51,095 nt of DNA. Source: a virus. Both the position numbers and the translations under genes were made by a program. Shown here one piece after another: positions 12,338 to 28,173 of the stretch; the first letter of the stretch is position 1, and every line of letters starts with the position of its first letter. The stretch lies in IMG/VR virus record IMGVR_UViG_3300040801_001309, positions 1 through 51,095 of that record. The stretch is one strand, 5' to 3'. A model generated the notes under the pieces. That model did not search any database. It saw only the letters and a list, made by a program, of their open reading frames with translations, and was not told where the DNA came from.

Positions 12338-12496
12338 CTAATTCATGTTAAGTGTTTCTTTGGTATCTTTATCAACTATCAAAACATCGTGCCATTCATC
12401 GGCAGACATTAAATAACATCTATATTCAGCTAATAATGCTTTTATTTTGTGTTTGCAAATTTCAATGTCTGTATTCTGTTCATCATTTTTTCTCAT
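12338..12496 (-). CDS. Small hypothetical protein (52 aa, below the ORF-track cutoff)
   Basis: ATGA overlap with the RNA ligase stop. The product begins MRKNDEQNTDIEICKHK... Confidence 0.4.
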   Translation of the reverse strand: MRKNDEQNTDIEICKHKIKALLAEYRCYLMSADEWHDVLIVDKDTKETLNMN

Positions 12497-13620
12497 TTGT
12501 CCACTCCTAATATTCGTGTGAATTTTTTAGCAACAGTTTTCATACTCTTTTTCTTTGCTTCCATTTTAATACATTCTTTGAATGATATATCATGTTCATA
12601 CATCATAAACATATATTTACTTTTTGATTCTTTTGTTGCTATTGCAAATTCCTTTCTATCTAAATGTTTATTCTTTTCAAACAATTCGGTTTCGTCATTG
12701 ACTAACGTGATATATTTATCTCTGGCATCAAATATAATGTCGTTATATTCAGGAAATTCGTCTGTAAACTCTTCAACATTACCCATCATAATTAGAGTCA
12801 TAACACTGTTCATTGATGCTCCAACACTGTCTTTAATTCTCATAAGAGCACGATGTCCAGGATTTATGACTTTTACTCTGTAGAAATCTCTACTGTTATG
12901 CCGTGTGTTTGAAACAAATACACTACCTTCGTCACGAGTGTCTAATTGACAAACAAACTCTTGAGCATCTTCAATTTTAGATAGGTTATATGTTTTTGGT
13001 AAATTGAATCCACATTGTTTAGCAATGTATGCCTTTTCATCTTGATCACATTCAATATAGTGATTGTCTTTTCGTCTAGCACACAATATACTTAATTTAT
13101 AATCAGTATATCTAGTTACGTGTCTATTTTCTGGAGTCGTCAGTTCAAATGTTAAATCATAATGAGTTTCTGGAAATTTGTAATTATTTTTGTTCCATGT
13201 TTCTTTAAGGAGATCATTAAATGTTTTTGCTGAAAAGGTTAATGATCCTTCACCATTAATAACTCCTCTTGTGCTTTTTATCCACTCATCATTATGATAT
13301 GCAAGACCTATTAAACTTCCATCTAATTTTTCAAGATACACACCATCATCAATGTCAAGTGCAACATTAAGTGCTTCACCATAATTAAAAAATCGAATCA
13401 TTGGGAAATGAACAATTTCCCAATCTTTTGACTTATCTAAAATTAATCCTCGACATTCCATAACAATTGAATCTGTTTTTGGACTATCCAATTGATGATA
13501 ATTAAATAAATGTAACCCTGAAAATTTAGGGTTTGTATTAACTATAATTCCCAATTCAGCAGTTAATTGTTCAGGAGTTCCTCCTTTCTGAAGAAACTCC
13601 TGTACTTTAAGAATAGTCAT
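12493..13620 (-). CDS. RNA ligase, T4 Rnl1 (gp63) family
   Basis: 375 aa. Matches to T4 Rnl1 include ECRGLILD (T4 ECRGIMFE), PMIRFFNYGE (PMEKFFNLNE), the lysine motif YLEKLDGSL (LTKEDGSL), FELTTPENRHV (FEFVAPTNRIV) and EGSVFV (EGYVAV). Confidence 0.8.
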   Translation of the reverse strand: MTILKVQEFLQKGGTPEQLTAELGIIVNTNPKFSGLHLFNYHQLDSPKTDSIVMECRGLILDKSKDWEIVHFPMIRFFNYGEALNVALDIDDGVYLEKLDGSLIGLAYHNDEWIKSTRGVINGEGSLTFSAKTFNDLLKETWNKNNYKFPETHYDLTFELTTPENRHVTRYTDYKLSILCARRKDNHYIECDQDEKAYIAKQCGFNLPKTYNLSKIEDAQEFVCQLDTRDEGSVFVSNTRHNSRDFYRVKVINPGHRALMRIKDSVGASMNSVMTLIMMGNVEEFTDEFPEYNDIIFDARDKYITLVNDETELFEKNKHLDRKEFAIATKESKSKYMFMMYEHDISFKECIKMEAKKKSMKTVAKKFTRILGVDK

Positions 13621-14083: not shown

Positions 14084-14980
14084 CTATATTTCTATATGTA
14101 GCTTTCCAATGTTCAAATCTTCAAGAATAATTTCACCACACATCTGTGCAATTTTCAAACATAGTCTTCCAGAAATGGTTGTACTCATCGCCAACCATTT
14201 ATTACTGAATCTAAAGCCACTCATTCCAGTCAAACCATAACTTGAGTTGGCATTAATCTTCATAGCTAATTGTCTTCTATCATATAATTGGTAAATATCA
14301 CTCGATGTTCCATGTTCCAATTCCGCTTGATATCGTTTCTTTTTATACTCATCACGCATGTTAATTCTATTACTCAAGAAATCATTCATTATTCCGAATT
14401 TATGTTCATGAGTATAAAACATACAACCTGATAGATTTAAATTTACATTTTTTTGTTTAACATAGTTTCCAATATTATTACCATCTAATCGTAAAATGGA
14501 TAATGTTGGATTAACTATATTTTCAATACTATATATATGATCTGATGTTACTTCCCCATTTAATAAATAATCATGACAGAAACTATTATATTCATTTCCA
14601 GATGGATGAATATCTGTATATAGATCTATAAACGGTATTAAATATAATTTACTTGTTAGCCAATCTTCTCTTGTTTTTGGATTGAATAAATCTCGTAGGG
14701 GTCTGTTTATTCGTTTCAATTTATTTAATAGATACATAATTATAAAATACATATTTTGTTTATATTCTTTTTTATTTTGTGGATCTAATTTTTCCACAAA
14801 ATTATAAACATCTTCTAATATGGCTAATGGTATTGCTGAATGTAAATCTTGGCCTGTTCCAAGCACAGGCCCAATGAAATTTTCAAGCATATTATATGCA
14901 AGTGGGTCTATTATTCTTCCCCAATATGTATCAAATGATATGTTATTTTCTTGCATTTTAGAAGGGTACAGTGCTTTTGC
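14084..14980 (-). CDS. Family-B DNA polymerase, exon 2 (motif A second half to motif B)
   Basis: The segment begins AKALYPS, the SLYPS part of motif A, and contains motif B as KINANSSYGLTG. The ORF-track TTG start at 14983 is probably intron sequence. Confidence 0.8.
   Translation of the reverse strand, partial: AKALYPSKMQENNISFDTYWGRIIDPLAYNMLENFIGPVLGTGQDLHSAIPLAILEDVYNFVEKLDPQNKKEYKQNMYFIIMYLLNKLKRINRPLRDLFNPKTREDWLTSKLYLIPFIDLYTDIHPSGNEYNSFCHDYLLNGEVTSDHIYSIENIVNPTLSILRLDGNNIGNYVKQKNVNLNLSGCMFYTHEHKFGIMNDFLSNRINMRDEYKKKRYQAELEHGTSSDIYQLYDRRQLAMKINANSSYGLTGMSGFRFSNKWLAMSTTISGRLCLKIAQMCGEIILEDLNIGKLHIEI
14088..14097 (-). promoter_or_regulatory. ATATAGAAAT promoter-like box
   Basis: Minus-sense CTACATATAGAAATATAG overlaps the last codons of PolB exon 2, upstream of 13617..13931. 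Confidence 0.4.
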
Positions 14981-15087
14981 CAAAATGTTAGCTACTAATT
15001 ACTTAGTAGTTCAGACTATATCATCTTGACAATTGTGCCAAGAATGTCGTGTAGTCGTTTGCTAGTAGTTATATATTTTAAGTATTG

Positions 15088-15097
15088 ATATAGAAAT
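15088..15097 (+). promoter_or_regulatory. ATATAGAAAT box in plus orientation
   Basis: This is the only plus-sense copy. It lies about 50 nt upstream of the plus-strand ORF 15148..15636. Confidence 0.45.
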
Positions 15098-15147
15098 ATA
15101 CATTATTAGTATGTATTAATAACTTTTATTTAACAAGGAGAATTATC

Positions 15148-15636
15148 ATGAGGAAAAAATTGACTATGTTGTCGGCGCTCATTTGTTTGATGTCTGTCTC
15201 AATTTGTTTTGGGGAGACAAGGTGTTGCCTCCCAGGAGTCACACCATCATTTGGGGTTTTCTTTAATAACGTTCAATTGGTTGACAACTTTTACATTGTT
15301 GTCAACGAAACTGATTTTACAGGAAAAGTAACACAATCTATCTTGACACCAATGGATTTGATTGATGGTCGAGTTGTATACCCATCAACACTTATTGCTG
15401 ACGCAGGATATACGCTAACTGTATCATCCGTAATGTTCTATCAAGATGATATTGGATTTGAAGGTACTTTTTGGTATGGTGGTTCTGTAATAAAAACTAT
15501 TCCAGTCACATCTGATTTGTCAGATGTGACAGAGATCTTCATTTATGTTAAGAAACAAATTTTCGATGTGAATGGTGATGGTAAAACTGGATTAGAGGAA
15601 GTGATATATATACTAAGAAGTCTATCAGGAATGTAA
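15148..15636 (+). CDS. Secreted protein with C-terminal dockerin/EF-hand-like Ca-binding motif
   Basis: RBS AAGGAGAATTATC-ATG. Signal peptide MRKKLTMLSALICLMSVSICFG. C-terminal motif DVNGDGKTGLEEVIYILRSLSG. It has its own terminator, is GC-elevated, and lies antisense inside the PolB intron. Confidence 0.7.
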   Translation: MRKKLTMLSALICLMSVSICFGETRCCLPGVTPSFGVFFNNVQLVDNFYIVVNETDFTGKVTQSILTPMDLIDGRVVYPSTLIADAGYTLTVSSVMFYQDDIGFEGTFWYGGSVIKTIPVTSDLSDVTEIFIYVKKQIFDVNGDGKTGLEEVIYILRSLSGM

Positions 15637-15642
15637 CTACTA

Positions 15643-15690
15643 CTGCGGGTGCTCCATAATAGGAGTTTCCCGCAGGAAGACATTTTTTTA
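15643..15690 (+). terminator. Terminator of the plus-strand secreted-protein gene
   Basis: CTGCGGG...CCCGCAG hairpin followed by a T-run (CATTTTTTTA). Confidence 0.6.
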
Positions 15691-15726
15691 CGTTTTCTAT
15701 TGCTAGAAAACGGGACACAAAAGTTT

Positions 15727-16974
15727 ATCCAAATCAGATATAACACCGTTGACTTGATCAACGATTTTACCATACCCTTCTTTAACATATGCTCCTACAT
15801 ATCTACTTAATATTTTTTTGTATATTTTTTGTTCAACGCCATTATTAATTGTCCATTTGATTCTATTATCTTTTGGCTTTGGTAGAGTATCAATTTCTTG
15901 TTGTGAAATACCAAAAAAGTTTTCTTTTGCAATGCCGTGTTTTACTCTTATTTTTTTTTGATCTAAAACATATGAAAAATAAGTATCAAATAATGCTGCT
16001 GGACCTCTCATACTAAGTCCAAGAGGAGTTTTCATATCCCTACGCAACATATTATGTAGTTCAATATGTCTGAGTTTAAGATCAAGTAATCTACAGAGGA
16101 CAACATCTATAACATTATATTTAATATATGTTTCAGGATGTTCTTCGTATAATCTGTCTAAATTTGTACCATCATCCTTGTAGTCTAATTTTTTTAATCC
16201 AAGTTCCGCATTTGATATCCAATCAAGAGTATACGATGGTTGTAATTTACCATAGTTTAATCCTGGATTCATTATTTCGCCACGAGGAGTATATAGATAT
16301 TTGATATCCATACTTGGTAAATCAGGAATAATAATAAATGTTCCTTTTTTACCCATTTTTCTTTCTTTTACTATTCCTACATGACTCATAATATCTGCTA
16401 CTTTTTGTCTATCTCCAAGAAGATTTAAAAGTCGACCATAGATATATGGAATATCATATTTATCGCTATTGAATCCTGATATTATGTGTGTATTTATACC
16501 ATGAATTTTATTAAACATGTCCGTAAGCATTTTAACTTCATCTGTATAAAGTAAAATCTTACAACTTTCATCATCATTAATATATCTGGTTTTATTTCCC
16601 TTTTTATCTTCAAATAATTCTTGTTTAATTTCTTGTTCTAATGCTGATATGTCTATATTTGCAATTTTTGTTTTAATTATATCCAGTACAAGAAAATAAC
16701 AAGTATAGCATTTCTCAATAGAGCTATAAATTGTTACTGCGCTTATTGGACTTACACATCCTTCTTCAACTTTAAATTTACCAGTGTTGTGAGTGTAAAC
16801 CTCAATGTCATGATATACTGTGTGTAAATTTTGTACAAGATCAATATTGTCATTTGGATATTTTAGATAATGTTGAATTGCGTAATATTGTTGTGGTTCT
16901 ACTTCGGCATTATAAATATTATCGTAATTTAATTTGCCTGTTTCTAGATTGTCTATTAGTTGATTAAAGTTCAA
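15727..16974 (-). CDS. Family-B DNA polymerase, exon 1 (3'-5' exonuclease domain to motif A Asp)
   Basis: Exo I is YHDIEVYT, Exo II is SGFNSDKYDIPYIY and Exo III is KYNVIDVVL. It ends in GAYVKE...GVISDLD, the first half of motif A. In the unspliced frame a stop follows 7 codons later. The start codon is TTG. Confidence 0.8.
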
Positions 16975-17353: not shown

Positions 17354-18955
17354 TTAAATTTCATTATAAATTCGTTCTTTTAAAGCATCATAATTATATA
17401 GTATATCAGACGCATATCTCAACATTTTACCGTTGGTATCATTCAATCTGAATAATTCATCATCACCTTCGAATAAACTACTTCCAGATAACGGTGGATT
17501 TGTATTAATTAAAATAGTTCTTCCATCAACTCCTAATTTCTTAATTGATAGTTTATAATCATTTATATCCGGTCCAGAATTATGATGTTCATCTGTAATA
17601 AATATTACAGCATTTGTATCAAATCCTTTCTCTCTACTATCTTCAATAGCAAATTCAAGACCACCAATACAATCTGTTGCGCTAACTCCATATTTATCTT
17701 TAATATATGGATGTAGTTCACTAATAAATTTATTTACAAATTCATTAGGAGCTAACTCAATATATTGTGAAAACCATTCAGTTTCATCTCCTTTTACATG
17801 AGTATCACCAAAAATGTAAAATTTAGAATTATAAAATATATTTTTCATTAATGCTAAATATTTAACAGATTTCAAAAGATTATCACTAAACATTGATCCA
17901 CTAACATCAAATACAATTACAGGATTAACCCAAGATTCAAAGTTGAATAAACAGTGATCTTTGAGAATATTGTCAATTGCATCTAATATAGCTGGATGGA
18001 TATATGGATAACCCATTGCACCACTGTAATAGTTATAGTGAGCAGGAACCATAATAAGTTCCATTGGATCTATCATTCTGTCATTGCCACTTGTAAATAC
18101 ACTTCTTAATCTATTTTCAAGTTTTGTTGCATCTTCACCATTGAGTTTTGTAAGATTTGCCAGTAACTCTTTAATAGCAATTTTGTCAATATTTATACTT
18201 ATAAACTCTTTAGCAGCAGATGTTGATACATTTGTATCTGACAAGACTGCTCTTAGGCTTTCGCCTTTAGTAACCTTACCAGTTTCTTCATCAACTTCAA
18301 CTTTGAGTGCTGCACCACTATTATTCTTAATAATAGACAAGTACAGATCAGACATTTTATCGTCTACTGGTTTAGGTTGAAATCCATGAATCAAGTTTAC
18401 AAGTTTGATCCATTTTTTCTTCATCTTTCTATTTTTCAAAGTATGTTCTTTGAAAGACATAAGACTATCCCGCATAGCATTGTATGCCCACTGTGGAAGC
18501 ATTCTTTTTGCCCAACCAGTTTTCCATCTTTCATTGTGTAGATCAAATTCCGGATGAAGATTATGATAATAACAAATAGCATTTGTTATGAAGTCCGGTC
18601 TTGTAAAAATGTTTCTAATCAATTTAGATAGGACTTTTTGATCACCATTATCAATGGCTCTTGTAATAGCAACAGTTGGCCCAAGACGCATACCGATTGT
18701 CATTGCAACAAAATTGATCATACCATAAAAATATTTTGGATCATTTCTATGAACCAAGTCAATAAGACGCTCAATATTCTGTAACTTATCAGTGTCGCTG
18801 TAATAAAAGTTTCTCTCTGTATCCAGTAATTTTGCCTGGTTTAGATTGCTTTTTCTTGGTCTGAAACTCAAAAGACTAACTATTAACTGTTTGTCTTCAG
18901 GCATTTTAATATCAGTTGTTGCTGTTGTTACACGATTTGCTTTAGGATTAAACAT
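17354..18955 (-). CDS. rsr: Ro60-like protein (TROVE domain plus vWA domain)
   Basis: 533 aa. TROVE-like segments are IFTRPDFITNAICYY and KKWIKLVNLIHGFQPKP (compare Ro ..HPKP). The C-terminal vWA domain has the MIDAS motif VIVFDVSGSM at about residue 350, matching Ro60 architecture. Confidence 0.75.
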   Translation of the reverse strand: MFNPKANRVTTATTDIKMPEDKQLIVSLLSFRPRKSNLNQAKLLDTERNFYYSDTDKLQNIERLIDLVHRNDPKYFYGMINFVAMTIGMRLGPTVAITRAIDNGDQKVLSKLIRNIFTRPDFITNAICYYHNLHPEFDLHNERWKTGWAKRMLPQWAYNAMRDSLMSFKEHTLKNRKMKKKWIKLVNLIHGFQPKPVDDKMSDLYLSIIKNNSGAALKVEVDEETGKVTKGESLRAVLSDTNVSTSAAKEFISINIDKIAIKELLANLTKLNGEDATKLENRLRSVFTSGNDRMIDPMELIMVPAHYNYYSGAMGYPYIHPAILDAIDNILKDHCLFNFESWVNPVIVFDVSGSMFSDNLLKSVKYLALMKNIFYNSKFYIFGDTHVKGDETEWFSQYIELAPNEFVNKFISELHPYIKDKYGVSATDCIGGLEFAIEDSREKGFDTNAVIFITDEHHNSGPDINDYKLSIKKLGVDGRTILINTNPPLSGSSLFEGDDELFRLNDTNGKMLRYASDILYNYDALKERIYNEI

Positions 18956-20018
18956 TGGTATTCTCCTTTGATTTTATCACAACCTGTTTATATAATCTTC
19001 GTTTTTGATGGAATGATAGACTATCCCACTTACTAACAACAAAATTAGAGTAATTACTATTTTCACAAAGATGGTTTCTTTCTTCTTTTGATAAATCGTC
19101 CCATTTGTCAATAATATCATCATTATATTTGTTATATTCACAAAAGTATATTTTTTGTCGAAATGTTAATTCATCCCACTTACTTACGATAAAGTCTGTA
19201 TAATTGATATTAGAGCAAAGAGATTCCTTTTGCCCCTTTGATAATATATTCCATTGTTCAGCAATAAACTCACTATATTTAACATTGGCACATGCTTTAT
19301 TTTTTTGGAATGTGTCCAGTTTATCCCACATTCCAATAATAAAATCACTATATGCATTATTATAGCACAGATTTGTTTTTTGTGTTACTGATAATGCATC
19401 CCATTTATCGACAATTGATTGAATATAATCACTAACGTAACATAAAATTTCTTTTTGTCTATCTGTTAGTTCATCCCACTTAGTTGCAAGAAATTCACAA
19501 TACTCTTTATTACAACTTAAGTTGTTTCGTTGCATATTTGATAGGTTGTCCCAATCATTAACAATGATATCGTTATATGAACTATCGTAACATAAAATTT
19601 CTTTTTGTCTATTTGATAGTTCATTCCATTTTTCAACAATAATTTCATGACATATATCATGCGTATTTTTGATTTCATCCCAACGGTCAAGTATTAATCT
19701 ACTATCAATTTGTTCGTCTGTAAGATAAAATCGTTTACATCTGAATTTTGATTCGCCAGGTATAATTGTTATATAATTATTTTCTATTGGAACATAGCAT
19801 TTGTACACAGGTCCATTCATGAATAACAATGCTGAAAGTGGATTGTCAAATAAATTTAAACCATATGAACATAATTTATTTATATTGGTATCAACAACAA
19901 GTGATTCATACCAATGATTAGTATCATATGTAAAATTATCTTTAACGTTTCGCATATCTTTTCTAAAGACTTTATATGCAATGTAGCACTGTGTATTTTG
20001 AAATAATATCGTTTCCAT
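18948..20018 (-). CDS. Tandem 25-aa repeat protein
   Basis: The start is moved to the ATG preceded by GAAAGGAATAAACTT. The C-terminal two thirds consist of WDxLSxxQKxxLCxNxxYxxFIVxK repeats. Confidence 0.6.
   Translation of the reverse strand: METILFQNTQCYIAYKVFRKDMRNVKDNFTYDTNHWYESLVVDTNINKLCSYGLNLFDNPLSALLFMNGPVYKCYVPIENNYITIIPGESKFRCKRFYLTDEQIDSRLILDRWDEIKNTHDICHEIIVEKWNELSNRQKEILCYDSSYNDIIVNDWDNLSNMQRNNLSCNKEYCEFLATKWDELTDRQKEILCYVSDYIQSIVDKWDALSVTQKTNLCYNNAYSDFIIGMWDKLDTFQKNKACANVKYSEFIAEQWNILSKGQKESLCSNINYTDFIVSKWDELTFRQKIYFCEYNKYNDDIIDKWDDLSKEERNHLCENSNYSNFVVSKWDSLSFHQKRRLYKQVVIKSKENTNV
18990..19682 (-). repeat. About nine in-frame 75-bp tandem coding repeats
   Basis: Trp residues recur every 25 aa, at ORF residues 157, 182, 207, 232, 257, 282, 307, 332 and 357. 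Confidence 0.8.
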
Positions 20019-20312
20019 AAGTTTATTCCTTTCACATGTGGGATAGCAGTGAACTGATATCCCATTGAAAATATTATTTGAATGTTTCGAATTCACTGTC
20101 CCAATACGTTACTGCATATTCGCACATGGCTATTAGATATACAGGGAATACAACGTAGAATCCTGCTGTGTTGATTACTTTGAGAAATAAGTCAACACCT
20201 TTTGTATTGGACATGTCTTTTATTTCAATGATCCATTTCTTCGCAAACATATATCCAATAAGGACATATCAGAATGTTGCAAATACGCCCAAAATCATCA
20301 GTATTAGTTGTA

Positions 20313-21116: not shown

Positions 21117-21782
21117 TTATATTGAAATATGTTTCCACTTTTCACCGCTTTTAATACTTTTAATAATATATTTTGAAACATTAAGAGTTTTTTCTATGTA
21201 CCAACTTTTAACTCCTTGGGAAATCATTTTTTTAATTTGTTTTGCGACATCTTCTGTTATAATGGCGTTGCCATGTTTTTCACCAAAACAATGTAAATTA
21301 GTTTTAACAGCATGATCAATATTTGCTCTATGTGTTACAAGTTCTAAATTGTCAGGTTTATTATTTTGTTTATTTCCATCAATGTGATTGATCTCTAAAT
21401 TTTGATCTAATTGCCCTTTAAATTTTCGATATATTATTCTATGAACTTTCAAAAGTTTATTTTTATATCGTTGAACATGATATCGATTATCGTTTAATCT
21501 ATCACTTCTTCGCCAAGGATATGTTTTTCCATTAGCTGGAAATCCACTAAGGGGAACATTTGTCAAGATAGTTCCATCTTCCCGAATATCATATTGTGGG
21601 TCTGTAATGAGTTGTTCAATTAAATAATCATGCGAACCAGTATTTTTATTATTGCACCAATAATGTGCTGTACTTTTTGTTACTCTAAATTTATTAGCAA
21701 TCTGCTGATATGACCATCCCTGATTTCTTAATTCTCTTGCTTCTTCTTTTATTTCTTCTGAATATCTGTTACCTGTTGACAT
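21117..21782 (-). CDS. HNH homing endonuclease (paralogue 1)
   Basis: N-terminal HTH is WSYQQIANKFRVTKSTAHYW. The HNH core is EINHIDGNKQNNKPDNLELVTHRANIDHA. Confidence 0.8.
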   Translation of the reverse strand: MSTGNRYSEEIKEEARELRNQGWSYQQIANKFRVTKSTAHYWCNNKNTGSHDYLIEQLITDPQYDIREDGTILTNVPLSGFPANGKTYPWRRSDRLNDNRYHVQRYKNKLLKVHRIIYRKFKGQLDQNLEINHIDGNKQNNKPDNLELVTHRANIDHAVKTNLHCFGEKHGNAIITEDVAKQIKKMISQGVKSWYIEKTLNVSKYIIKSIKSGEKWKHISI

Positions 21783-21789
21783 TTATTTC

Positions 21790-22389
21790 ATAGTTTCTCC
21801 TTTATAATGATTTTGAAGTCTAGAACTTTCACTTCTATCCACTGCTTAATCCATTAAGCTACATCGAGAAAAATTGTTGTCACTGTCCAGATACAGATTT
21901 AAGAGCAAACGCTCACCACAATCTTTATACATTAAGTGTATCAATAACTTAACAAAGTGGCCGCACTCTCCCCTATCTGGTGGGATTTGATTGTCTTTCG
22001 CTTCCACAGTGACTAGTAATCTAATCTTTGTGATATCCCAAAGAACCTATTGACATAACGTCGTAATGTAAACTCCACTAATAGGTCAGTGGCATGGTAC
22101 TTTCGCCGGATTACTATTTTCGACGACATACAGGACATATCATAAATGATATCGGCATATGGCATCTAAAGGGTGACTTACGGGTAACGAGCCCGTGCAT
22201 ACAAGAGCCACAATCTTGCGTGTTTCCACTTCACCAAAGTCACCATAAAATAGTCCAGAGCATTTTACGCGCGCTTCATGCTCTGTTGTCACACTAATTA
22301 ATACCATATGGTAGCTACTTCCACTGGGTTATTAATTCCCATAAACGCTTGTACGGTCCATATAGGTTATCGTAAGTGTTAGACTAAAG
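21790..22389 (-). ncRNA. Group I-like ribozyme region A, upstream of HNH paralogue 1
   Basis: About 600 nt, non-coding, GC-elevated and rich in GNRA hairpins. R-like CTCTGGACTATTT is at 22243-22261. The P8 hairpin CTTTG..CAAAG is at 22026-22043. S-like GATTACTAGTCAC is at 22007-22021. Together they give a P7 with a bulge. Confidence 0.5.
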
Positions 22390-22462
22390 TACCGAGAACT
22401 AGGATTGAACTAGTGACTTCACGATTATCAGTCGTGCCTTCTACCAACTGAAGTATCCCGGT
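22390..22462 (-). tRNA. tRNA-Ile(GAT): tRNA-Ile (anticodon GAT)
   Basis: Canonical 73-nt cloverleaf: ACCGGGA/TCTCGGT, CACGA-CTGATAA-TCGTG, ACTAG-TTCAATC-CTAGT. Confidence 0.85.
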
Positions 22463-22790
22463 AAGATATTTTAGCTCCTAATTTATCAAAGCTGTCAACA
22501 ATAGATTCTGTTTCTTCTTTTGTAAATGCACCTAATGATATAGGAATGTTATTAACTATATTTCTTGCATCCCTTAAATTTAATCCTGTAATCTTACCAA
22601 CTTTTTGAATTGTTTGCAGTTTATTATCACCAATAGATGATAATATTAACTCAAATTCAATTCGTTCTTCTGCGTAATCACCATGCCCTGGAATAACAGT
22701 AATAGGTATATTTAACGTAGTTGATAAGTCTTCCAATAGTTTCCCTTCGGATAATGTTTTAATATAATTAATTACGTCGTCATTAGTCAT
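22428..22790 (-). CDS. rplL: Ribosomal protein bL12 (L7/L12) homologue
   Basis: The C-terminal domain EERIEFELILSSIGDNKLQTIQKVGKITGLNLRDARNIVNNIPISLGAFTKEETESIVDSFDKLGAKI aligns by eye with bacterial L7/L12 (TEFDVIL..G.NKV.VIK.VR..TGLGLKEAKDLVE..P..LKEGVSK.DAE.LKK.LEEAGA). The NTD pattern is also similar. The last 12 codons overlap tRNA-Ile. Confidence 0.75.
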   Translation of the reverse strand: MTNDDVINYIKTLSEGKLLEDLSTTLNIPITVIPGHGDYAEERIEFELILSSIGDNKLQTIQKVGKITGLNLRDARNIVNNIPISLGAFTKEETESIVDSFDKLGAKISYRDTSVGRRHD

Positions 22791-23579: not shown

Positions 23580-24107
23580 TCTCCTTATAATTTTTGATAA
23601 AGTGCCAGCTCCGAGATACGAGCTCGGACGGCTCTAAGCCACATGCTTCTAGGGCATGCATGTCTACATTCCATCAAGCTGGCATGGTGACACTGGTGGG
23701 ACACGACCCCACAATCCCTTTCGGGCGCAAGATTTTCTTACCACTACAGTTTTCACTGCCACATAAATGTGTTTGTGGTCTGGACTATATCATCATCTCA
23801 GAATCTGAGATGTTCGGCGCTGTTAATGCTATTATTGGTAACTCTCCTCAAGCAATAGTCTCTGCACCTTCTACGATACTTATTGAGTATTCTCGTAGCT
23901 TGGCTCATGATTACCAGTTAAGGCTTCCATGAATTCACCGAATTCTATCATAGTATCACTACTATGTAGCTCAATAATCAAGTCTTGAGCGTATACATTC
24001 CGCCACAGTGTCATAATAATCTTTTTTTCTATTTAGGGAGTACCAACACGGCTTTCGCCGATGCTTTTGAGACATCTGTGTAACACCATACTCCCTTAAT
24101 GTTGAAT
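23580..24107 (-). ncRNA. Group I-like ribozyme region B, upstream of HNH paralogue 2
   Basis: R element GGTGCAGAGACTATTGC is at 23852-23868. The P8 hairpin CATCTCAG-ATT-CTGAGATG is at 23794-23812. S element GATGATATAGTCC is at 23782-23794, close to the classical AAGAUAUAGUCC. GNRA hairpins include CGGC-GAAA-GCCG and CAGT-GAAA-ACTG. Confidence 0.65.
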
Positions 24108-24179: not shown

Positions 24180-24305
24180 AAAATAATATCATATTAGTTT
24201 TTATTCCAGCGTCATAGCATGACTAGACTACCCACTCGTGGGACAGGATTTTAAACACCTGTGTTTCTGGATTGGGATATTTTTTTTGCATATGTAAACT
24301 AATAT
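24180..24305 (-). promoter_or_regulatory. Stem-loop unit U1 (ATATTAG-TTTACATATG-91 nt-CTAATAT-GATATTATTTTG)
   Basis: Perfect 7-bp arms, the conserved box after the 5' arm, and a GATATT..TTTTG flank abutting tRNA-Asp. The loop folds into a three-hairpin junction. Confidence 0.55.
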
Positions 24306-24385
24306 TTTTTTAACTATATGCTGGAAAAATCAACTGTCGTGGATGTCACACAGTCTCGTACTTCAATTGATACATATAGTTGAAG

Positions 24386-24459
24386 TTATCGTGGGTAGGA
24401 TTGAACTACCGACAACGGCCTTATAAGGACCGCGCTCTAACCAACTGAGCTACACGATA
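24386..24459 (-). tRNA. tRNA-Ile(TAT): tRNA-Ile (anticodon TAT)
   Basis: Acceptor TATCGTG/CACGATA. D-arm GCTC-AGTTGGTTA-GAGC. Anticodon arm CGGTC-CTTATAA-GGCCG. T-arm GGTAG-TTCAATC-CTACC. Confidence 0.8.
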
Positions 24460-24466
24460 TTATATA

Positions 24467-24552
24467 AGGTAGGTATGAGACTTGAACTCATAGATGCTAT
24501 TAACACCGACTCCTTAGCAGGGAGCTGCACTACCAAATTATGCGAACCTACC
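24467..24552 (-). tRNA. tRNA-Ser(GCT): tRNA-Ser (anticodon GCT)
   Basis: Type II tRNA. Acceptor GGTAGGT/ACCTACC, anticodon arm GCTCC-CTGCTAA-GGAGT, a long variable arm, and T-loop TTCAAGT. Confidence 0.8.
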
Positions 24553-24745
24553 AATTATGGATCAGGAATTTGTTTGTCCTCTGAATGTTACATCATGACC
24601 ATCTTTATCTACAGCTAATACAATGACCGCAACCAGTTATAGTTGCTTCTTTTTGTTTATTATATCTATTTCTAACAACATCACCAACGTTTAATTGTTG
24701 TTGATTATCTGACCATACCATAAGTATTTCCTTTCATATTTAAAG

Positions 24746-24819
24746 AGCCCTTGGAGGAAACTGAGTCCCCGACCTACGGTTTACAAGACCGTCGCTACTG
24801 CCAACTGAGCTACAAGGGC
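24746..24819 (-). tRNA. tRNA-Thr(TGT): tRNA-Thr (anticodon TGT)
   Basis: Acceptor GCCCTTG/CAAGGGC and anticodon arm ACGGT-CTTGTAA-ACCGT. The T-loop CTCAGTT is non-canonical. Confidence 0.75.
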
Positions 24820-24864
24820 ATAATATAGATAACTACAGTTATCTATTGTATCATGAAAAATGTT

Positions 24865-25539
24865 TTAAAAATCTGTTACATGTTTCCATGAATTAAATTC
24901 ACAAATATCATGAACAGTAGTCTTTTTCAGGTTTAACTTTTTTTGTATTTCGCTTTTGGATAAATTGTGATGATAAAATAATTGTCTTATAGTTTTTACA
25001 ATATCTTCTGTTAATACTGACGTTCCGACTTTTTCACCAAAACAATGCAATTTATTATCAACAGAGTGTTGAATGTTTTCTTGTGATGTAAGTAGTTCTA
25101 AATTTTCAGGAGTATTGTTGTGCTTATTTCCATCAATATGGTTAATCTCTAAATTTGGATCAAGTTTACCTTTAAACTTTCTATAAACTATTCTGTGAAC
25201 TCGAAGGTTTTTTCCACTATATTTAACAGCTTTATAATTCTGATCTCTTTTTTTGTCACACTGTCGCCAAGTATTTGTAACAAGTTTACCAGTTTTATCT
25301 TTGAGAGTCCAGATAGTTCCATCTTCACGAATATCATACAGTGGATCGACTATAATGTTCTCAATAAGATGATCTAATTGTGCTTTACTATTAGAACTGT
25401 AATTAATATTGTTACACCAATAGTGTGTCATACTTTTTGATGTTCCAAATTTATCAGCAATTTGTTTGTATGACCAACCCTGATTTCTTAATTCTCTTGC
25501 TTCTTCTTTTATTTCTTCTGAATATCTATTACCAGCCAT
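24865..25539 (-). CDS. HNH homing endonuclease (paralogue 3)
   Basis: It has the same N-terminus (AGNRYSEEIKEEARELRNQGWSYKQIADKF) and HNH core (EINHIDGNKHNNTPENLELLTSQENIQHS). It is flanked directly by tRNA-Pro and tRNA-Thr. Confidence 0.8.
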   Translation of the reverse strand: MAGNRYSEEIKEEARELRNQGWSYKQIADKFGTSKSMTHYWCNNINYSSNSKAQLDHLIENIIVDPLYDIREDGTIWTLKDKTGKLVTNTWRQCDKKRDQNYKAVKYSGKNLRVHRIVYRKFKGKLDPNLEINHIDGNKHNNTPENLELLTSQENIQHSVDNKLHCFGEKVGTSVLTEDIVKTIRQLFYHHNLSKSEIQKKLNLKKTTVHDICEFNSWKHVTDF

Positions 25540-25575
25540 TTATACATACGTTCTCCTTTATAATAATTTTGAATA

Positions 25576-25647
25576 TCGAGAATGGATGATTTGCACATCA
25601 GATTGAGACTCCCAAGGTCCCCGTGTTACTATTACACTACATTCTCG
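25576..25647 (-). tRNA. tRNA-Pro(TGG): tRNA-Pro (anticodon TGG)
   Basis: Acceptor CGAGAAT/ATTCTCG and anticodon arm GGGAC-CTTGGGA-GTCTC. The D and T stems are weak. Confidence 0.6.
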
Positions 25648-25658
25648 TTAATGTACTG

Positions 25659-25724
25659 ATCCAGTAGTACTTTTGAGCACCGAGTTTACAGCCCAGTGGG
25701 ATACCAATTGACCATACTACTGGA
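25659..25724 (-). tRNA. Atypical 66-nt tRNA-like gene, anticodon GTA (Tyr)
   Basis: Acceptor is TCCAGTA/TACTGGA and the D-loop is TCAATTGGTA. The anticodon arm is CTGGG-CTGTAAA-CTCGG. Only 13 nt occupy the place of the variable region plus T-arm. Confidence 0.35.
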
Positions 25725-25798
25725 TTAAATGTAAAATATCGAATATGAATATTTGTATGTCCCTGGTTGTGGAACATTTTGCATATGTAATCATATTC
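25725..25798 (-). promoter_or_regulatory. Stem-loop unit U2 (GAATATG-ATTACATATG-34 nt-CATATTC-GATATTTTAC)
   Basis: Perfect 7-bp arms and the conserved box, upstream of the Tyr-like tRNA. Confidence 0.55.
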
Positions 25799-25874
25799 TA
25801 ACCAAACTCCGGTTGGCTATGTTTACCTATATACTATTTGCAGTGATCGATTTACCAAATGTATATAGCTAAAG

Positions 25875-25948
25875 ATGCTGTGGGTAGTTTCGAGCTACCG
25901 ATCTTCGGGTTTGCAATCCGACGCTTGTACCATCTCAGCTACACAGCC
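25875..25948 (-). tRNA. tRNA-Cys(GCA): tRNA-Cys (anticodon GCA)
   Basis: Acceptor GGCTGTG/CACAGCA has a 1-72 mismatch. The anticodon loop is TTGCAAA. The T-arm is GGTAG-CTCGAAA-CTACC. Confidence 0.65.
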
Positions 25949-25960
25949 AATGATTGAATG

Positions 25961-26335
25961 TTATTCAAAATATATGTTCATTATAAAATTTTCTGAAGAT
26001 ATGTTTTCAGTAATAGGATCGCTACAAAGAGCTTCTATCAACATTACTGGCATATCATCAATAATTTCATTTTCAATAACATCTATTTTAAACATATTTC
26101 GTGCTTTAATAATATGTTCTGAACATTCTTGTGTTAATTCTTCAAAATAACTATCTAAATTATCATGATGTATCCCATTAGCTTCATCAGTACATAAGTC
26201 ATTAAACCGTCCATCTATTTTATTACGAAGATCTTTAGATTCTTCAATAAAATTAGCAATAGTCTTATCTTCATTTGACGTGTTAACTATTACAATTGCT
26301 GCAACATTTGAGTCTTCGATATTCAGTAATGTCAT
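25961..26335 (-). CDS. Acidic hypothetical protein (124 aa)
   Basis: D/E-rich ORF embedded in the tRNA cluster. Confidence 0.55.
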   Translation of the reverse strand: MTLLNIEDSNVAAIVIVNTSNEDKTIANFIEESKDLRNKIDGRFNDLCTDEANGIHHDNLDSYFEELTQECSEHIIKARNMFKIDVIENEIIDDMPVMLIEALCSDPITENISSENFIMNIYFE

Positions 26336-26373
26336 GTGTTAGTTCTCCATTTTTATTGTAAATGTATAAAGCA

Positions 26374-26445: not shown

Positions 26446-26510
26446 ATGTAGAAAAAATATCGCACAAGTTATAAACAGTATTTCTGATATATGCATATGT
26501 AAACTTGTGC
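26446..26510 (-). promoter_or_regulatory. Stem-loop unit U3 (GCACAAG-TTTACATATG-25 nt-CTTGTGC-GATATTTTTTC)
   Basis: Perfect 7-bp arms and the conserved box, abutting tRNA-Glu. Confidence 0.55.
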
Positions 26511-26564
26511 TTAATGGTTATACCGAAGCCTAGCGCACAAGGCTGCCGACTACCCACATATAAC

Positions 26565-26879: not shown

Positions 26880-26927
26880 CTGTTATCAAAGTCCTTTCAT
26901 GTTATATATTGAAAAAGTAAAATATCG

Positions 26928-27040
26928 GATATGTTTTAGGACCATTGTTCTACCGGACTGAACTACATCCTTCCATTTGGAAAGACGATTGGAATTGAAC
27001 CAATGACATACGGTTTTGTTTTACATATGTAAACATATCC
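26928..27040 (-). ncRNA. YrlA-type (permuted) tRNA-like RNA; stem-loop unit U4
   Basis: The 5'-3' order is as follows. Closing stem GGATATG/CATATCC, then TTTACATATG. A 5-bp anticodon-stem analogue ACCGT/ATGGT, then a 4-5 nt variable loop. A T-arm with loop TTCAATT(C). A 9-bp acceptor-like hairpin CGTCTTTCC-AAAT-GGAAGGATG. Then TA and a canonical D-arm GTTC-AGTCCGGTA-GAAC. Confidence 0.6.
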
Positions 27041-27047
27041 TTTGAAC

Positions 27048-27271: not shown

Positions 27272-27272
27272 A

Positions 27273-27331
27273 CAAAATAGATCGAATACGTACTTAGCAA
27301 TGGTAAGAAATTATCATATGTAGACGTATTC
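27273..27331 (-). promoter_or_regulatory. Stem-loop unit U5 (GAATACGT-CTACATATG-23 nt-ACGTATTC-GATCTATTTTG)
   Basis: Perfect 8-bp arms and the conserved box. Confidence 0.55.
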
Positions 27332-27344
27332 TATAAACTAAAGG

Positions 27345-27418: not shown

Positions 27419-27475
27419 TCAAAATAGATCGATCACGTTATCATTTCAAGTGTATTATCATATGTAAACGTGATC
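27419..27475 (-). promoter_or_regulatory. Stem-loop unit U6 (GATCACGT-TTACATATG-20 nt-ACGTGATC-GATCTATTTTG)
   Basis: Perfect 8-bp arms and the conserved box, abutting tRNA-Met. Confidence 0.55.
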
Positions 27476-27576: not shown

Positions 27577-27682
27577 AATAGAAGAGATCGAACATGCTTA
27601 AGGGTGTGTATGTTTTTAAAATACACGGGAGTTTCACATCATTTTCATTTTAAATAAAATTTAAGCATATGTATGCATGTTC
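27577..27682 (-). promoter_or_regulatory. Stem-loop unit U7 (GAACATGC-ATACATATG-68 nt-GCATGTTC-GATCTCTTCTATT)
   Basis: Perfect 8-bp arms and a variant box. Confidence 0.5.
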
Positions 27683-27772
27683 TTTACAAACTAAAAGAAC
27701 TAAGCCAAGGCTCAATTCTTTTAGTACCATTTGAGTTCAAACAAGAGCTTGAACTCATTTAGTACTAATATA

Positions 27773-27782
27773 ATTTCTATAT
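27773..27782 (-). promoter_or_regulatory. ATATAGAAAT box at the head of the tRNA/ncRNA cluster
   Basis: Minus-sense TTTATATATAGAAATTATA, followed by two long hairpins. Confidence 0.45.
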
Positions 27783-28127: not shown

Positions 28128-28163
28128 ATAAAAAATACAGCATCTCCCAATAGTTGGGAAATG
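28128..28163 (-). terminator. Rho-independent terminator
   Basis: GCATTTCCCAA-CTAT-TGGGAGATGC hairpin followed by TGTATTTTTTA. Confidence 0.6.
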
Positions 28164-28173
28164 CTTTTAAAAT

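What the first reader, a model, noticed from the sequence alone, without database searches (positions are those of the whole stretch)
17354..18955. Phage-encoded Ro60 (TROVE plus vWA) RNA-quality-control protein
The 533-aa product has the Ro60 architecture. The N-terminal TROVE-like region contains RPDFITNAICYY and LIHGFQPKP. The C-terminal vWA domain has a DVSGSM MIDAS motif at the expected position. Bacterial Ro orthologues (Rsr) act with Y RNAs and exonucleases on misfolded or damaged RNAs and are often linked to RNA repair genes. Here the gene sits in a genome that also carries an Rnl1-type RNA ligase, Pth2, bL12, a YqeY-like protein, a large tRNA set and a candidate Y RNA (26928-27040).
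Basis: partly seen in the sequence, partly recalled or inferred. Interest (0 to 1): 0.65.

Follow-up and report, generated by a model that had tools for sequence, protein, structure and literature searches.

The report
Divergent phage Ro60 with candidate Y-RNAs
This phage gene encodes a very divergent but genuine Ro60-type ring-shaped RNA-binding protein, a kind already known in phages; unexpectedly, it travels with a previously undescribed family of small stem-closed RNAs, one carrying a tRNA-like module, that are probably its partner "Y RNAs".

Summary
The ORF 17354-18955(-), 533 aa, and all three quoted motifs are real. The sequence alone hits no TROVE or vWA model in Pfam, NCBIfam, PHROGs or PDB. 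An exhaustive HMMER search found 62 full-length relatives. A profile of the 20 closest, none a Pfam TROVE hit alone, matches the crystal structure of phiRo60 (Thermus phage phiLo) end to end (E=3.6e-35) and Xenopus/human Ro60 (about 1e-12). A confident AlphaFold model (pLDDT 88) has only Ro60 rings as full-length structural neighbours. The MIDAS ligands are invariant. So it is a Ro60 homologue: a new, Pfam-invisible clade of a kind already known in phages.

It has a closing stem around a permuted tRNA-like module, as in YrlA, but lacks the GNCGAA/CGAA motif. It is one of seven stem-closed units in the window's tRNA region that share UACAUAYG just above a covarying 8-10 bp stem. In ten related loci such units lie upstream of the Ro gene on its strand, 0.1-1.1 kb away in nine and 2.5-3.8 kb in L001. 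I infer they are this clade's Y RNAs; binding is untested.

The parts
17354..18955 (-). Gene for a 533-aa Ro60-like protein (TROVE/HEAT-repeat ring plus vWA). Its start codon overlaps the stop of the upstream 382-aa repeat-protein ORF (18948-20096).
   Evidence: ORF. 62 relatives. Profile matches to phiRo60, Ro60 and Rsr. AF2 pLDDT 87.8. Foldseek top 12 hits are all Ro60 rings.
17936..18808 (-). Alpha-helical TROVE/HEAT-repeat region (about aa 50-340) that forms most of the ring.
   Evidence: All-helical with pLDDT above 90. Aligned to phiRo60 residues about 20-310.
18368..18436 (-). Basic segment KNRKMKKKWIK (aa 174-184) plus LIHGFQPKP (aa 188-196). It is equivalent to the phiRo60 alpha9-alpha10 Y-RNA-contact region (R163, R169, R173, R178). 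From my recollection of the Ro60 sequence, it also corresponds to the vertebrate KYKQR...LLRLSHLKP segment.
   Evidence: Alignment A8 and contact residues from PMC12135203: R163 maps to K180, R178 to K195, K193 to K210 and R173 to H190.
17441..17923 (-). vWA domain (about aa 345-505) with alternating beta/alpha structure.
   Evidence: Secondary structure. vWA_Ro60 (PF25045) is hit by 7 of the 20 close relatives. Isolated vWA structures are the next Foldseek tier.
17891..17908 (-). MIDAS motif DVSGSM (D350, S352, S354). The remaining ligands are T427 and D455.
   Evidence: These columns are invariant in A2, A3 and A8. They correspond to the Ca2+ ligands D322, S324, T391 and D416 of the phiRo60 crystal structure.
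26927..27040 (-). Y-RNA-like small RNA. It has a 10-bp closing stem (GGAUAUGUUU/AAACAUAUCC), the UACAUAUG motif and a permuted tRNA-like module: a 5-bp anticodon-stem-like helix (ACCGU/AUGGU), a V loop, a T arm, a closed acceptor hairpin and a D arm. It starts 6 nt after tRNA-Asn.
   Evidence: Rfam YrlA local hit of 26.6 bits to model positions 23-85. MFE -32.6 kcal/mol, z=-4.2. Strict descriptor: 6 hits against 0.3 in shuffles. Homologue in L007 with compensatory pairs.
27590..27682 (-). Stem-closed sRNA unit with the UACAUAUG motif (stem GAACAUGC/GCAUGUUC).
   Evidence: z=-3.1.
27431..27475 (-). Stem-closed sRNA unit with the UACAUAUG motif (stem GAUCACGUU/AACGUGAUC).
   Evidence: z=-3.0.
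27284..27331 (-). Stem-closed sRNA unit with the UACAUAUG motif (stem GAAUACGU/ACGUAUUC).
   Evidence: z=-2.7.
26462..26510 (-). Stem-closed sRNA unit with the UACAUAUG motif (stem GCACAAGUU/AACUUGUGC), just 5' of tRNA-Glu.
   Evidence: z=-2.4.
25741..25798 (-). Stem-closed sRNA unit with the UACAUAUG motif (stem GAAUAUGA/UCAUAUUC), between tRNA-Cys and tRNA-Pro.
   Evidence: z=-4.8.
24191..24305 (-). Stem-closed sRNA unit with the UACAUAUG motif (stem AUAUUAGUU/AACUAAUAU) and a 90-nt structured insert, between tRNA-Ile and tRNA-Asp.
   Evidence: z=-2.5.
27768..27782 (-). Copy of the lineage's general promoter-like word (ttcaaattttat-ATATAGAAATTATAT), about 85 nt upstream of the first sRNA unit. 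It is the probable start of the sRNA/tRNA transcription unit.
   Evidence: The same word lies upstream of genes, tRNAs, sRNA clusters and Ro in the related loci.
28139..28165 (-). Intrinsic-terminator-like hairpin (12 bp plus a T run) that closes the preceding transcription unit.
12493..13620 (-). Context only: Rnl1-type RNA ligase, 3.7 kb downstream. It is syntenic only in the closest relative, L001.

Best explanation
The gene encodes a true Ro60/Rsr-type protein: a closed ring of HEAT-like helices (TROVE) with a vWA domain carrying a complete metal-binding MIDAS site. It belongs to a divergent clade that is inherited stably in an uncultivated myovirus lineage, where it sits directly upstream of the family-B DNA polymerase.

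By analogy with characterised Ro60 proteins, the ring binds the stem region of small non-coding Y RNAs on its basic outer surface. It can also take single-stranded 3' ends of misfolded or damaged RNAs into the central hole.

Its likely partner RNAs are phage-encoded. They form a family of small RNAs closed by an 8-10 bp stem whose sequence varies but whose pairing is kept. A conserved UACAUAYG element sits just above the 5' strand of that stem, in the position where canonical bacterial and phage Y RNAs carry GNCGAA/CGAA. One member per genome, in the window and in L007, additionally carries a YrlA-like permuted tRNA module.

In the window these RNAs are embedded in the tRNA array. They are probably transcribed with it from the promoter-like word at about 27782 and released by tRNA-processing enzymes.

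The most likely role during infection is to form Ro/Y-RNA particles that engage a host 3'-5' exoribonuclease such as PNPase, as shown in vitro for phiRo60. That would control the fate of structured RNAs (tRNAs, tmRNA, damaged RNA fragments) in a phage that invests heavily in translation and RNA repair.

Shown here: homology, fold, MIDAS conservation, RNA structure conservation and genomic association. Inferred: RNA-protein binding, exonuclease recruitment and biological role.
For: Protein:
- 62 relatives, 44 of them below 1e-10, mostly 480-530 aa and matching over the full length.
- A profile of the 20 closest relatives matches phiRo60 (9l5y/9kop) at E=3.6e-35 over 14-493 against 20-482, Xenopus Ro60 at 5e-13, human Ro60 at 4e-12 and Rsr at 9e-7. 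The wider profile gives 5e-55 and about 1e-20, full length.
- 7 of the 20 close relatives hit the Ro60-specific vWA model, and 4 of the 58 hit TROVE down to 8e-29.
- The AF2 model has pLDDT 87.8 and pTM 0.88. The Foldseek top 12 PDB hits are all Ro60 rings with TM 0.5-0.63, followed only by vWA domains. Phage TROVE/Ro-like proteins top the viral library.
- The intermediate P0004 links by tblastn to phiLo, Myrna gp227 'Ro-like RNA binding protein' and a crAss-like 'Ro sixty-related protein'.
- MIDAS residues D350, S352, S354, T427 and D455 are invariant and correspond to the phiRo60 Ca2+ ligands.

RNA:
- YrlA local hit.
- The permuted-module descriptor gives 6 hits against 0.3 in shuffles.
- Window and L007 score 101 and 99 bits with model R1 and show compensatory pairs.
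- Closing stems of at least 8 bp occur at 31 of 64 TACATAYG sites against 3.5 expected. Stems of at least 9 bp occur at 25 against 1.4.
- 8 of 9 stem pairs change on both sides.
- All units are on the Ro strand and upstream of Ro. 22 of 23 units in nine lineage loci (L003, L004, L006-L010, L014, L015) lie 100-1100 nt upstream of Ro; in L001 they lie 2.5-3.8 kb upstream.
- 120 unrelated contigs carrying the 14-mer show 0 Ro genes and 3 stems.
- A different word is the general promoter.

Mechanistic precedent comes from PMC12135203 and PMC4201824.
Against: - The sequence alone gives no TROVE or vWA hit.
- Only 3 of 8 experimentally validated phiRo60 RNA-contact residues are kept as Lys/Arg, plus one His.
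- The Y-like RNA lacks the GNCGAA/CGAA Ro-binding motif and reaches only 26.6 of the 69 bits needed for Rfam YrlA.
- In the window the units are 5.2-8.6 kb from the gene, outside the 4-kb rule of Chen et al.
- The closest relative's contig, L001, has motif units but no tRNA-like module between Pth2 and Ro.
- There is no expression or binding data, and no PNPase gene was seen in the window.
- The covariation alignment was selected for having stems, so its per-cent-paired figure is circular.
Confidence: 0.7

Rival explanations
1. The protein is a Ro60 homologue, but the UACAUAYG stem-closed units are not its ligands. They would instead be processing or insulator elements of the sRNA/tRNA precursor, or ligands of another phage protein, and they sit upstream of Ro only because that intergenic region is where the lineage keeps its small-RNA genes. 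The real Ro partner would be only the tRNA-like RNA, host RNAs or nothing.
For: The association is purely positional. The units lack the CGAA motif. In the window they lie in the tRNA array 5-9 kb from Ro. An AG...CG frame around each stem could be a nuclease processing signature.
Against: 22 of 23 units in nine lineage loci lie within 1.1 kb upstream of Ro on its strand and essentially nowhere else in 21-kb loci. tRNAs in those loci are elsewhere. Two family members carry a YrlA-type module, which is the hallmark of bacterial Y RNAs. The motif occupies the same position relative to the closing stem as CGAA does in phiLo Yrl2.
Confidence: 0.25
2. TTACATATG is a phage promoter, or the end of a mobile mini-element, and the flanking complementarity is incidental.
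For: The word is over-represented, with 9 copies against 1.6 expected, and precedes tRNA genes.
Against: The stems are different in every copy and covary. That is not expected for promoters or for transposon inverted repeats, which keep their sequence. A separate word, TTC-N7-ATATAGAAATAATAT, occurs 6-8 times per 21-kb locus in front of genes, tRNAs, the sRNA clusters and Ro, and is the better promoter candidate. The sigma-70 scan shows no enrichment. The 5' stem strand lies upstream of the motif, so it must be transcribed for the stem to form.
Confidence: 0.04
3. The protein is a generic helical-domain-plus-vWA protein (for example DUF2828/DUF7788-like or CoxE-like) that resembles Ro60 only superficially.
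For: There is no single-sequence TROVE hit. Some relatives hit VWA_CoxE. DUF2828/DUF7788 proteins appear lower in the viral fold list.
Against: There is a full-length profile match to three independent Ro60-family crystal or cryo-EM sequences. The only full-length structural neighbours are Ro60 rings. Hits to the Ro60-specific vWA model outnumber generic ones among close relatives.
Confidence: 0.02

Closest known systems
phiRo60 of Thermus phage phiLo with Yrl1/Yrl2 (PDB 9KOP/9L5Y; Hu et al., NAR 2025, PMC12135203)
   Same: It is phage-encoded and about 500 aa, with a HEAT-repeat ring, an inserted vWA domain and a complete MIDAS site. It is the best sequence-profile match (E=3.6e-35) and the best structural match. 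Its small RNAs are encoded upstream of the gene on the same strand, each with a closing stem and a conserved motif about 10 nt into the 5' strand.
   Different: Pairwise identity is only about 17%. Four of the eight validated RNA-contact residues are not basic here. The window clade has an insertion (HNERWKTGWAKR, aa 140-151) at the alpha8 contact region. The phiLo Yrl RNAs carry CGAA and no tRNA-like module (no YrlA hit), whereas the window RNAs carry UACAUAYG and one has the tRNA-like module. The window RNAs number seven and are embedded in a tRNA array.
Bacterial Rsr with YrlA/YrlB Y RNAs (Salmonella, Mycobacterium, Deinococcus; Chen et al. 2014, PMC4201824; Rfam RF02553)
   Same: The protein architecture is the same. 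At least one partner RNA has a tRNA-like domain in which the T arm, a closed acceptor stem and the D arm are enclosed by a stem formed from the RNA ends. There are several Y RNAs per locus, on the same strand as the Ro gene. Both are linked to RNA-repair genes: rtcBA in Salmonella, and Rnl1 in the window.
   Different: The GNCGAA(N)G motif is absent. The Rfam score is 26.6 against a gathering score of 69. The distance from the gene is 8 kb in the window. The ligase is Rnl1 rather than RtcB, and the linkage is not conserved across the phage lineage.
Ro-like proteins of mycobacteriophages (e.g. Myrna gp227), crAss-like phages and jumbo phages (Iyer et al. 2021, PMC7824862)
   Same: These are phage TROVE proteins, sometimes alongside RNA ligases and tRNA genes. 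They are structural neighbours in BFVD and reachable by tblastn from the intermediate P0004.
   Different: Those proteins are annotated and detectable as TROVE. The window clade has no GenBank phage representative at E<=1e-5 and is labelled 'hypothetical protein'.
Vertebrate Ro60 with Y RNAs (PDB 1YVP, 9NEN)
   Same: The ring plus vWA fold (TM about 0.58), the MIDAS site and the conserved basic helix preceding an (L/P)KP turn are shared.
   Different: Identity is about 12-14%. Vertebrate Y RNAs carry GGUCCGA and have no tRNA-like module.

Membership tests
Ro60/Rsr (TROVE + vWA ring proteins) | Sequence homology of the N-terminal about 300 residues to the TROVE/HEAT-repeat domain | tested here: met
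   The single sequence gives no Pfam TROVE hit. The profile of the 20 closest relatives matches phiRo60 over residues 14-310 as part of a full-length alignment at E=3.6e-35. The wider profile matches Ro60 from residue 38 at E about 1e-20. 4 of the 58 relatives hit PF05731 down to 8e-29. phiRo60 itself scores only 28 bits.
Ro60/Rsr (TROVE + vWA ring proteins) | Closed ring (doughnut) of alpha-helical repeats | tested here: met
   The AF2 model has pLDDT 87.8 and pTM 0.88. All 12 best PDB neighbours are Ro60 rings aligned over the full length with TM 0.49-0.63. This rests on a prediction, not an experimental structure.
Ro60/Rsr (TROVE + vWA ring proteins) | C-terminal vWA domain with a MIDAS motif (DxSxS...T...D) | tested here: met
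   D350, S352, S354, T427 and D455 are invariant and correspond to phiRo60 D322, S324, T391 and D416. vWA_Ro60 (PF25045) is hit by 7 of 20 relatives.
Ro60/Rsr (TROVE + vWA ring proteins) | Basic outer-surface patch that contacts the Y RNA stem (phiRo60 R137, K141, K142, R163, R169, R173, R178, K193) | tested here: inconclusive
   K180, K195 and K210 are retained as basic residues and H190 is a histidine. P154, Y158, N159 and V186 are not retained. The segment 174-184 is still 7/11 Lys/Arg, and a clade-specific insertion adds K145, K150 and R151.
Ro60/Rsr (TROVE + vWA ring proteins) | Y RNA genes encoded near the gene on the same strand | tested here: met
   A YrlA-like RNA lies at 26927-27040(-) and six further stem-closed units lie on the same strand. 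In related loci the units lie upstream of Ro on its strand: 0.1-1.1 kb away in nine loci and 2.5-3.8 kb in L001. Their identity as Y RNAs is inferred.
Ro60/Rsr (TROVE + vWA ring proteins) | Binds Y RNA and the 3' ends of misfolded RNAs; assembles with PNPase | not testable with these tools
   This needs EMSA, RIP-seq or a structure.
YrlA (Rfam RF02553) | tRNA-like module (T arm, closed acceptor stem, D arm) enclosed by a stem formed by the RNA ends | tested here: met
   Local match to model positions 23-85. The strict descriptor gives 6 hits against 0.3 in shuffles. A 10-bp closing stem appears in the MFE structure, z=-4.2.
YrlA (Rfam RF02553) | Score at or above the Rfam gathering threshold (69 bits) | tested here: not met
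   26.6 bits, with E=7.7e-4 in a 281-nt search and 0.14 window-wide.
YrlA (Rfam RF02553) | GNCGAA(N0-1)G Ro-binding motif near the 5' end | tested here: not met
   There is no such motif in 26927-27040. UACAUAUG occupies that position instead.
YrlA (Rfam RF02553) | Within about 4 kb of the Ro gene on the same strand (Chen et al. 2014) | tested here: not met
   The strand is the same but the element is 8.0 kb upstream in the window. The rule is met in L007 (0.3 kb) and L023 (1.7 kb).

The most novel reading that the evidence does not exclude
The stem-closed UACAUAYG units are a new class of Y RNAs. Their Ro-recognition element has been replaced (UACAUAYG instead of GGUCCGA/GNCGAA/CGAA) in step with a remodelled RNA-contact surface of a divergent phage Ro60 clade. 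They are modular: the same scaffold occurs with or without a tRNA-like domain (compare L007 with L010). They are produced in multiple copies from within tRNA arrays. This would give the phage a set of Ro RNPs that use the host tRNA-processing machinery for maturation and redirect host exoribonucleases during infection.
Probability: 0.5. Interest if true: 0.65.

Novelty: new member of a known kind. Interest (0 to 1): 0.5.

Why it matters
Ro60/Y-RNA particles are conserved from bacteria to humans, yet their function in bacteria and phages is still poorly understood, and only one phage Ro60 has been studied biochemically.

This clade shows that Ro60 genes in phages are more widespread than domain databases reveal. 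The protein is annotated 'hypothetical' and invisible to Pfam, yet it is a stable, syntenic gene of a whole uncultivated myovirus lineage.

If the associated RNA family is confirmed as its ligand, it offers a natural experiment in the co-evolution of a Ro60 surface with its RNA recognition motif. It would also be a clean system of seven small RNAs with a simple 8-nt motif, with or without a tRNA-like module, for asking what the tRNA-like domain of Y RNAs is for. It also adds to the picture of phages carrying integrated kits for translation and RNA maintenance: tRNAs, tmRNA, Pth2, bL12, Rnl1 and Ro.

Tried and rejected
- Single-sequence searches of Pfam, NCBIfam, PHROGs and PDB, a two-sequence profile against PDB and tblastn against GenBank phages found nothing useful.
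- AF2 with the two-sequence alignment gave pLDDT 47 and was unusable.
- The word-indexed homologue search found only one relative. The exhaustive search was needed.
- I looked for canonical GNCGAA(N)G Y-RNA motifs. The intergenic hit 3' of tRNA-His (22100) lies in a region that is not unusually structured (z=-0.4 and -0.9), so I dropped it. The hit at 24052 is just a GAAA-tetraloop hairpin.
- A relaxed permuted-tRNA descriptor gave 48 hits against 26-40 in shuffles and was uninformative.
- Covariance model R1, built from window plus L007, cross-hits junctions of adjacent ordinary tRNAs at 21-24 bits, so low scores cannot be used. Apparent hits 3' of Ro in L005, L007 and L010 are only a tRNA-Met.
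- MAFFT could not register the L023 element with the other two.
- A scan of IMG/VR with the 14-mer GAGGATTACATATG returned only chance matches, with 0 Ro genes and 3 of 120 stems. It served as a negative control.
- IMG/VR holds only two loci of this Ro clade.
- The idea that TTACATATG is the promoter was rejected after I found the separate general promoter word.
- The idea that Rnl1 and Pth2 are conserved partners of Ro was rejected, because they co-occur only in L001.
Full report
**1. Observation**

The minus-strand ORF 17354..18955 exists, starts with ATG and encodes 533 aa. The three quoted motifs are present at residues 119-130, 188-196 and 350-355. The N-terminus MFNPK... aligns with the MFNK/MFNN starts of relatives, so the start codon is right. 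The start overlaps the stop of an upstream 382-aa repeat-protein ORF by 8 nt, which suggests co-transcription.

**2. Is it Ro60?**

On its own the sequence hits nothing relevant in Pfam, NCBIfam, PHROGs or the PDB sequence set. It has no tblastn match in 50,697 GenBank phage records. The word-indexed protein search found only itself (a JGI 'hypothetical protein') and one 61%-identical relative.

An exhaustive HMMER search of 1.84 billion representatives with the two-sequence profile then returned 62 proteins. Of these, 44 are below 1e-10 and 20 below 1e-30, almost all are 480-530 aa, and they match end to end.

Scanning 58 of them individually showed PF05731 (TROVE) in four, best 8e-29, and the Ro60-specific vWA model PF25045 in six. 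To avoid circularity I built a profile from only the 20 closest relatives. None of these hits TROVE individually, and seven hit vWA_Ro60. That profile gives:
- 9L5Y/9KOP: E=3.6e-35, over positions 14-493 against residues 20-482
- Xenopus Ro60: 5e-13
- human Ro60: 4e-12
- D. radiodurans Rsr: 9e-7

The wider profile gives 5e-55 and about 1e-20, full length. 9KOP/9L5Y is phiRo60 of Thermus phage phiLo (PMC12135203).

An AF2 model built with the 58-sequence alignment is confident: pLDDT 87.8 and pTM 0.88. It is helical to about residue 340, followed by a beta/alpha vWA domain and two C-terminal helices. Its 12 best PDB neighbours are all Ro60-family rings over the full length, with TM 0.49-0.63. 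For comparison, known Ro60 orthologues differ from each other by 6 A RMSD according to PMC12135203. Below those 12, only isolated vWA domains appear. In the viral structure library the best hits are phage TROVE/Ro-like proteins.

An intermediate member, P0004, connects by plain tblastn to phiLo, to mycobacteriophage Myrna gp227 'Ro-like RNA binding protein' and to a crAss-like 'Ro sixty-related protein'. The crystallographically proven phiRo60 itself scores only 28 bits on Pfam TROVE.

The MIDAS ligands D350, S352/S354, T427 and D455 are invariant in the family. They correspond to the Ca2+ ligands of phiRo60.

Of the eight phiRo60 residues shown by mutagenesis to contribute to Y-RNA binding:
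- Three are retained as Lys (K180, K195, K210).
- One is His (H190).
- Four are not retained.

The segment 174-184 remains highly basic, and the clade has an insertion with extra basic residues at the alpha8 position.

Conclusion: this is a genuine Ro60 homologue with a probably remodelled RNA-contact surface.

**3. Genomic setting**

The window is part of a large tailed phage with no close GenBank relative. Its best topoisomerase match is 34% identical over 45% of the protein. It carries:
- a tail sheath, a split PolB and an Rnl1-type ligase
- Pth2, a Staphylococcal-nuclease-like (SNase) protein, a radical-SAM protein and an EndoIII-like protein
- topoisomerase II subunits, a clamp loader, a helicase and an intein-containing ORF
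- bL12
- 14 tRNAs, a tmRNA and a group I intron

Twenty-four further loci encoding relatives were fetched. In L001, L003/12, L007, L008, L010/11, L015/18 and L016, the Ro gene lies directly upstream of a PolB about 40% identical to the window's. Ro is therefore a vertically inherited gene of a phage lineage. Rnl1 and Pth2 accompany it only in the closest relative, L001.

**4. The candidate Y RNA**

The minus-strand segment starting 6 nt after tRNA-Asn contains, in order:
- a 10-bp closing stem formed by its ends
- a 5-bp helix (ACCGU/AUGGU)
- a 5-nt V loop
- a T arm with a UUCAAUU loop
- a 9-bp closed 'acceptor' hairpin
- UA, then a D arm with an AGUCCGGUA loop

This is a tRNA whose ends are joined and which is opened at the anticodon stem. 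That is exactly the topology of bacterial YrlA.

Rfam's YrlA model matches the module locally at 26.6 bits (positions 23-85 of 114). E is 7.7e-4 in a 281-nt search and 0.14 window-wide, and this is the only YrlA hit in the window. The score is far below the gathering score of 69. The fold is stable, at -32.6 kcal/mol with z=-4.2.

A strict descriptor for the permuted module gives 6 hits in 0.8 Mb against 0.3 in shuffles. None of the window's 14 tRNAs triggers it. The hits are the window element, one in L007 0.3 kb upstream of Ro, one in L022/L023 1.7 kb upstream of a 24%-identical Ro and inside a tRNA array, and one probable chance hit.

Window and L007 share the anticodon-stem-like helix and V loop, and they show compensatory changes in the T, D and acceptor stems. 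All three examples have a closing stem of different sequence. The GNCGAA/CGAA motif of canonical bacterial and phage Y RNAs is absent. phiLo's own Yrl region has no tRNA-like module.

**5. A wider RNA family**

The word TTACATATG near the 5' end of the window and L007 RNAs occurs 9 times in the window against 1.6 expected, with 0 of 100 shuffles reaching 9.

Reading the regions upstream of Ro in the other loci showed the same word. Each copy is preceded by a short segment whose reverse complement reappears 20-130 nt downstream. I tested this systematically:
- Of 64 TACATAYG sites in the window plus non-redundant loci, 31 have an abutting closing stem of at least 8 bp against 3.5 expected from random positions.
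- 25 have a stem of at least 9 bp against 1.4 expected.
- The stems differ from copy to copy. On 26 distinct copies, 8 of 9 pairs show changes on both sides (76 cells), and pairing collapses when the register is slid. The per-cent-paired figure is circular because the copies were chosen for having a stem. The enrichment and the diversity of stem sequences are not circular.

All 31 units are on the Ro strand and upstream of Ro. In nine lineage loci (L003, L004, L006-L010, L014, L015), 22 of 23 lie 100-1100 nt upstream of Ro and essentially none lie elsewhere in the 21-kb loci. In L001 they are 2.5-3.8 kb upstream, and in the window 5.2-8.6 kb upstream within the tRNA array.

The seven window units all fold with the closing stem, with z from -2.4 to -4.8. 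L007 and L010 carry the same scaffold (stem UAAUGCGGAU/AUCCGUAUUA, same 5' hairpin) with and without the tRNA-like module, so the module is a cassette.

As a negative control, 120 unrelated viral contigs that merely contain GAGGATTACATATG encode no Ro-clade protein and show 3 stems.

The promoter alternative is unlikely. A different, longer word, TTC-N7-ATATAGAAATAATAT, occurs 6-8 times per 21-kb locus in front of genes, tRNAs, the sRNA clusters and Ro itself. One copy lies at 27782(-), just upstream of the first window unit and downstream of a strong terminator at 28165-28139.

**6. Interpretation**

The protein is a Ro60 (confidence about 0.95).

Y RNAs are defined operationally as small RNAs that are closed by a stem, carry a conserved element in that stem region and are encoded next to Ro on the same strand. 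In bacteria one member carries a tRNA-like domain (PMC4201824). Given that definition, the units are most simply read as this clade's Y RNAs, with a replaced recognition element (about 0.5-0.55).

The functional model is taken from Rsr/RYPER and phiRo60 (PMC12135203). In it, the Ro/Y RNP engages a host 3'-5' exonuclease and controls the fate of structured or damaged RNAs. This model is inferred, not tested.

**7. Novelty**

Phage Ro60 proteins and phage YrlA-like RNAs are known: 22 phages in Chen et al. 2014, jumbo phages in Iyer et al. 2021, and a structure with biochemistry in Hu et al. 2025. The protein is therefore a new, unusually divergent member of a known kind. The associated RNA family with its UACAUAYG element, multiplicity, modularity and placement in tRNA arrays is not in Rfam. 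It is the part worth following up.

Noticed in passing
window 24191-27682 (-); L001, L003, L004, L006-L010, L014, L015 upstream of their Ro genes: A family of stem-closed small-RNA-like units. Each has an 8-10 bp covarying stem, a conserved UACAUAYG just above the 5' strand, a variable 12-115 nt insert and an AG...CG frame. The family is not in Rfam. There are seven copies in the window.
   Followed up: yes
window 27768-27782 (-), also about 45154, 33447, 5465, 1455 and 784 (-); 6-8 copies per 21-kb related locus: Lineage-wide promoter-like word TTC-N7-ATATAGAAATAATAT, often followed by TTTG, in front of genes, tRNAs, sRNA clusters and Ro. From my own knowledge, the TAnnTTTG-like ending resembles Bacteroidota -7 promoter elements, which would hint at the host phylum.
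   Followed up: partly
window 14084-16974 (-): The family-B DNA polymerase is split into an exonuclease ORF (15703-16974) and a polymerase ORF (14084-14983), with an opposite-strand 162-aa ORF (15148-15636) between them. L001 shows the same split. In more distant lineage members the two parts are contiguous. This suggests an inserted mobile element.
   Followed up: no
window 34104-34447 (-): A phage-encoded tmRNA (Rfam 98 bits, full length).
   Followed up: no
window 23761-23989 (-); 21117-21782 (-); 24865-25539 (-): A group I intron (86 bits) lies inside the tRNA region, and there are two HNH homing-endonuclease-like ORFs. The same intron is present in L001. The interrupted host gene was not identified.
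   Followed up: no
window 22428-22790 (-): A phage-encoded ribosomal protein bL12 homologue (C-terminal domain, E=5e-12). Its 3' end overlaps the 5' part of tRNA-Ile (22389-22462) by about 35 nt.
   Followed up: partly
window 18948-20096 (-): A 382-aa protein directly upstream of Ro and overlapping its start. It has a DUF7666-like N-terminus and about nine tandem repeats of about 24 aa, of the form W(D/N)xLSxxQKxxLCxNxxY. No homologue was found in the related loci by tblastn.
   Followed up: no
window 37073-38404 (-): An ORF with an intein splicing domain (E=7e-13). The host protein was not identified.
   Followed up: no
L001 2914-2970 (+): By eye, a tRNA-like sequence with an acceptor stem, a D arm and an anticodon arm (8-nt loop CUUUGGAA) but no V loop or T arm. 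It lies just upstream of a similar tRNA-Pro(UGG). It may be a degenerate or armless tRNA copy.
   Followed up: no
L007 9508-9537 and 9680-9710 (+); L010 9580-9610 and 9682-9712: A repeated hairpin GGCCAGCUUACGGGUUGGUC follows successive sRNA units. It may be a processing or termination element that separates the units.
   Followed up: no
window 29362-29802, 30544-30963, 32021-32908, 35610-36230, 36235-36864 (-): A cluster of accessory genes: Pth2 (E=3e-28), a Staphylococcal-nuclease-like protein, a radical-SAM protein, an endonuclease III-like glycosylase and a weak YqeY-like hit (24.6 bits, below the cutoff).
   Followed up: partly
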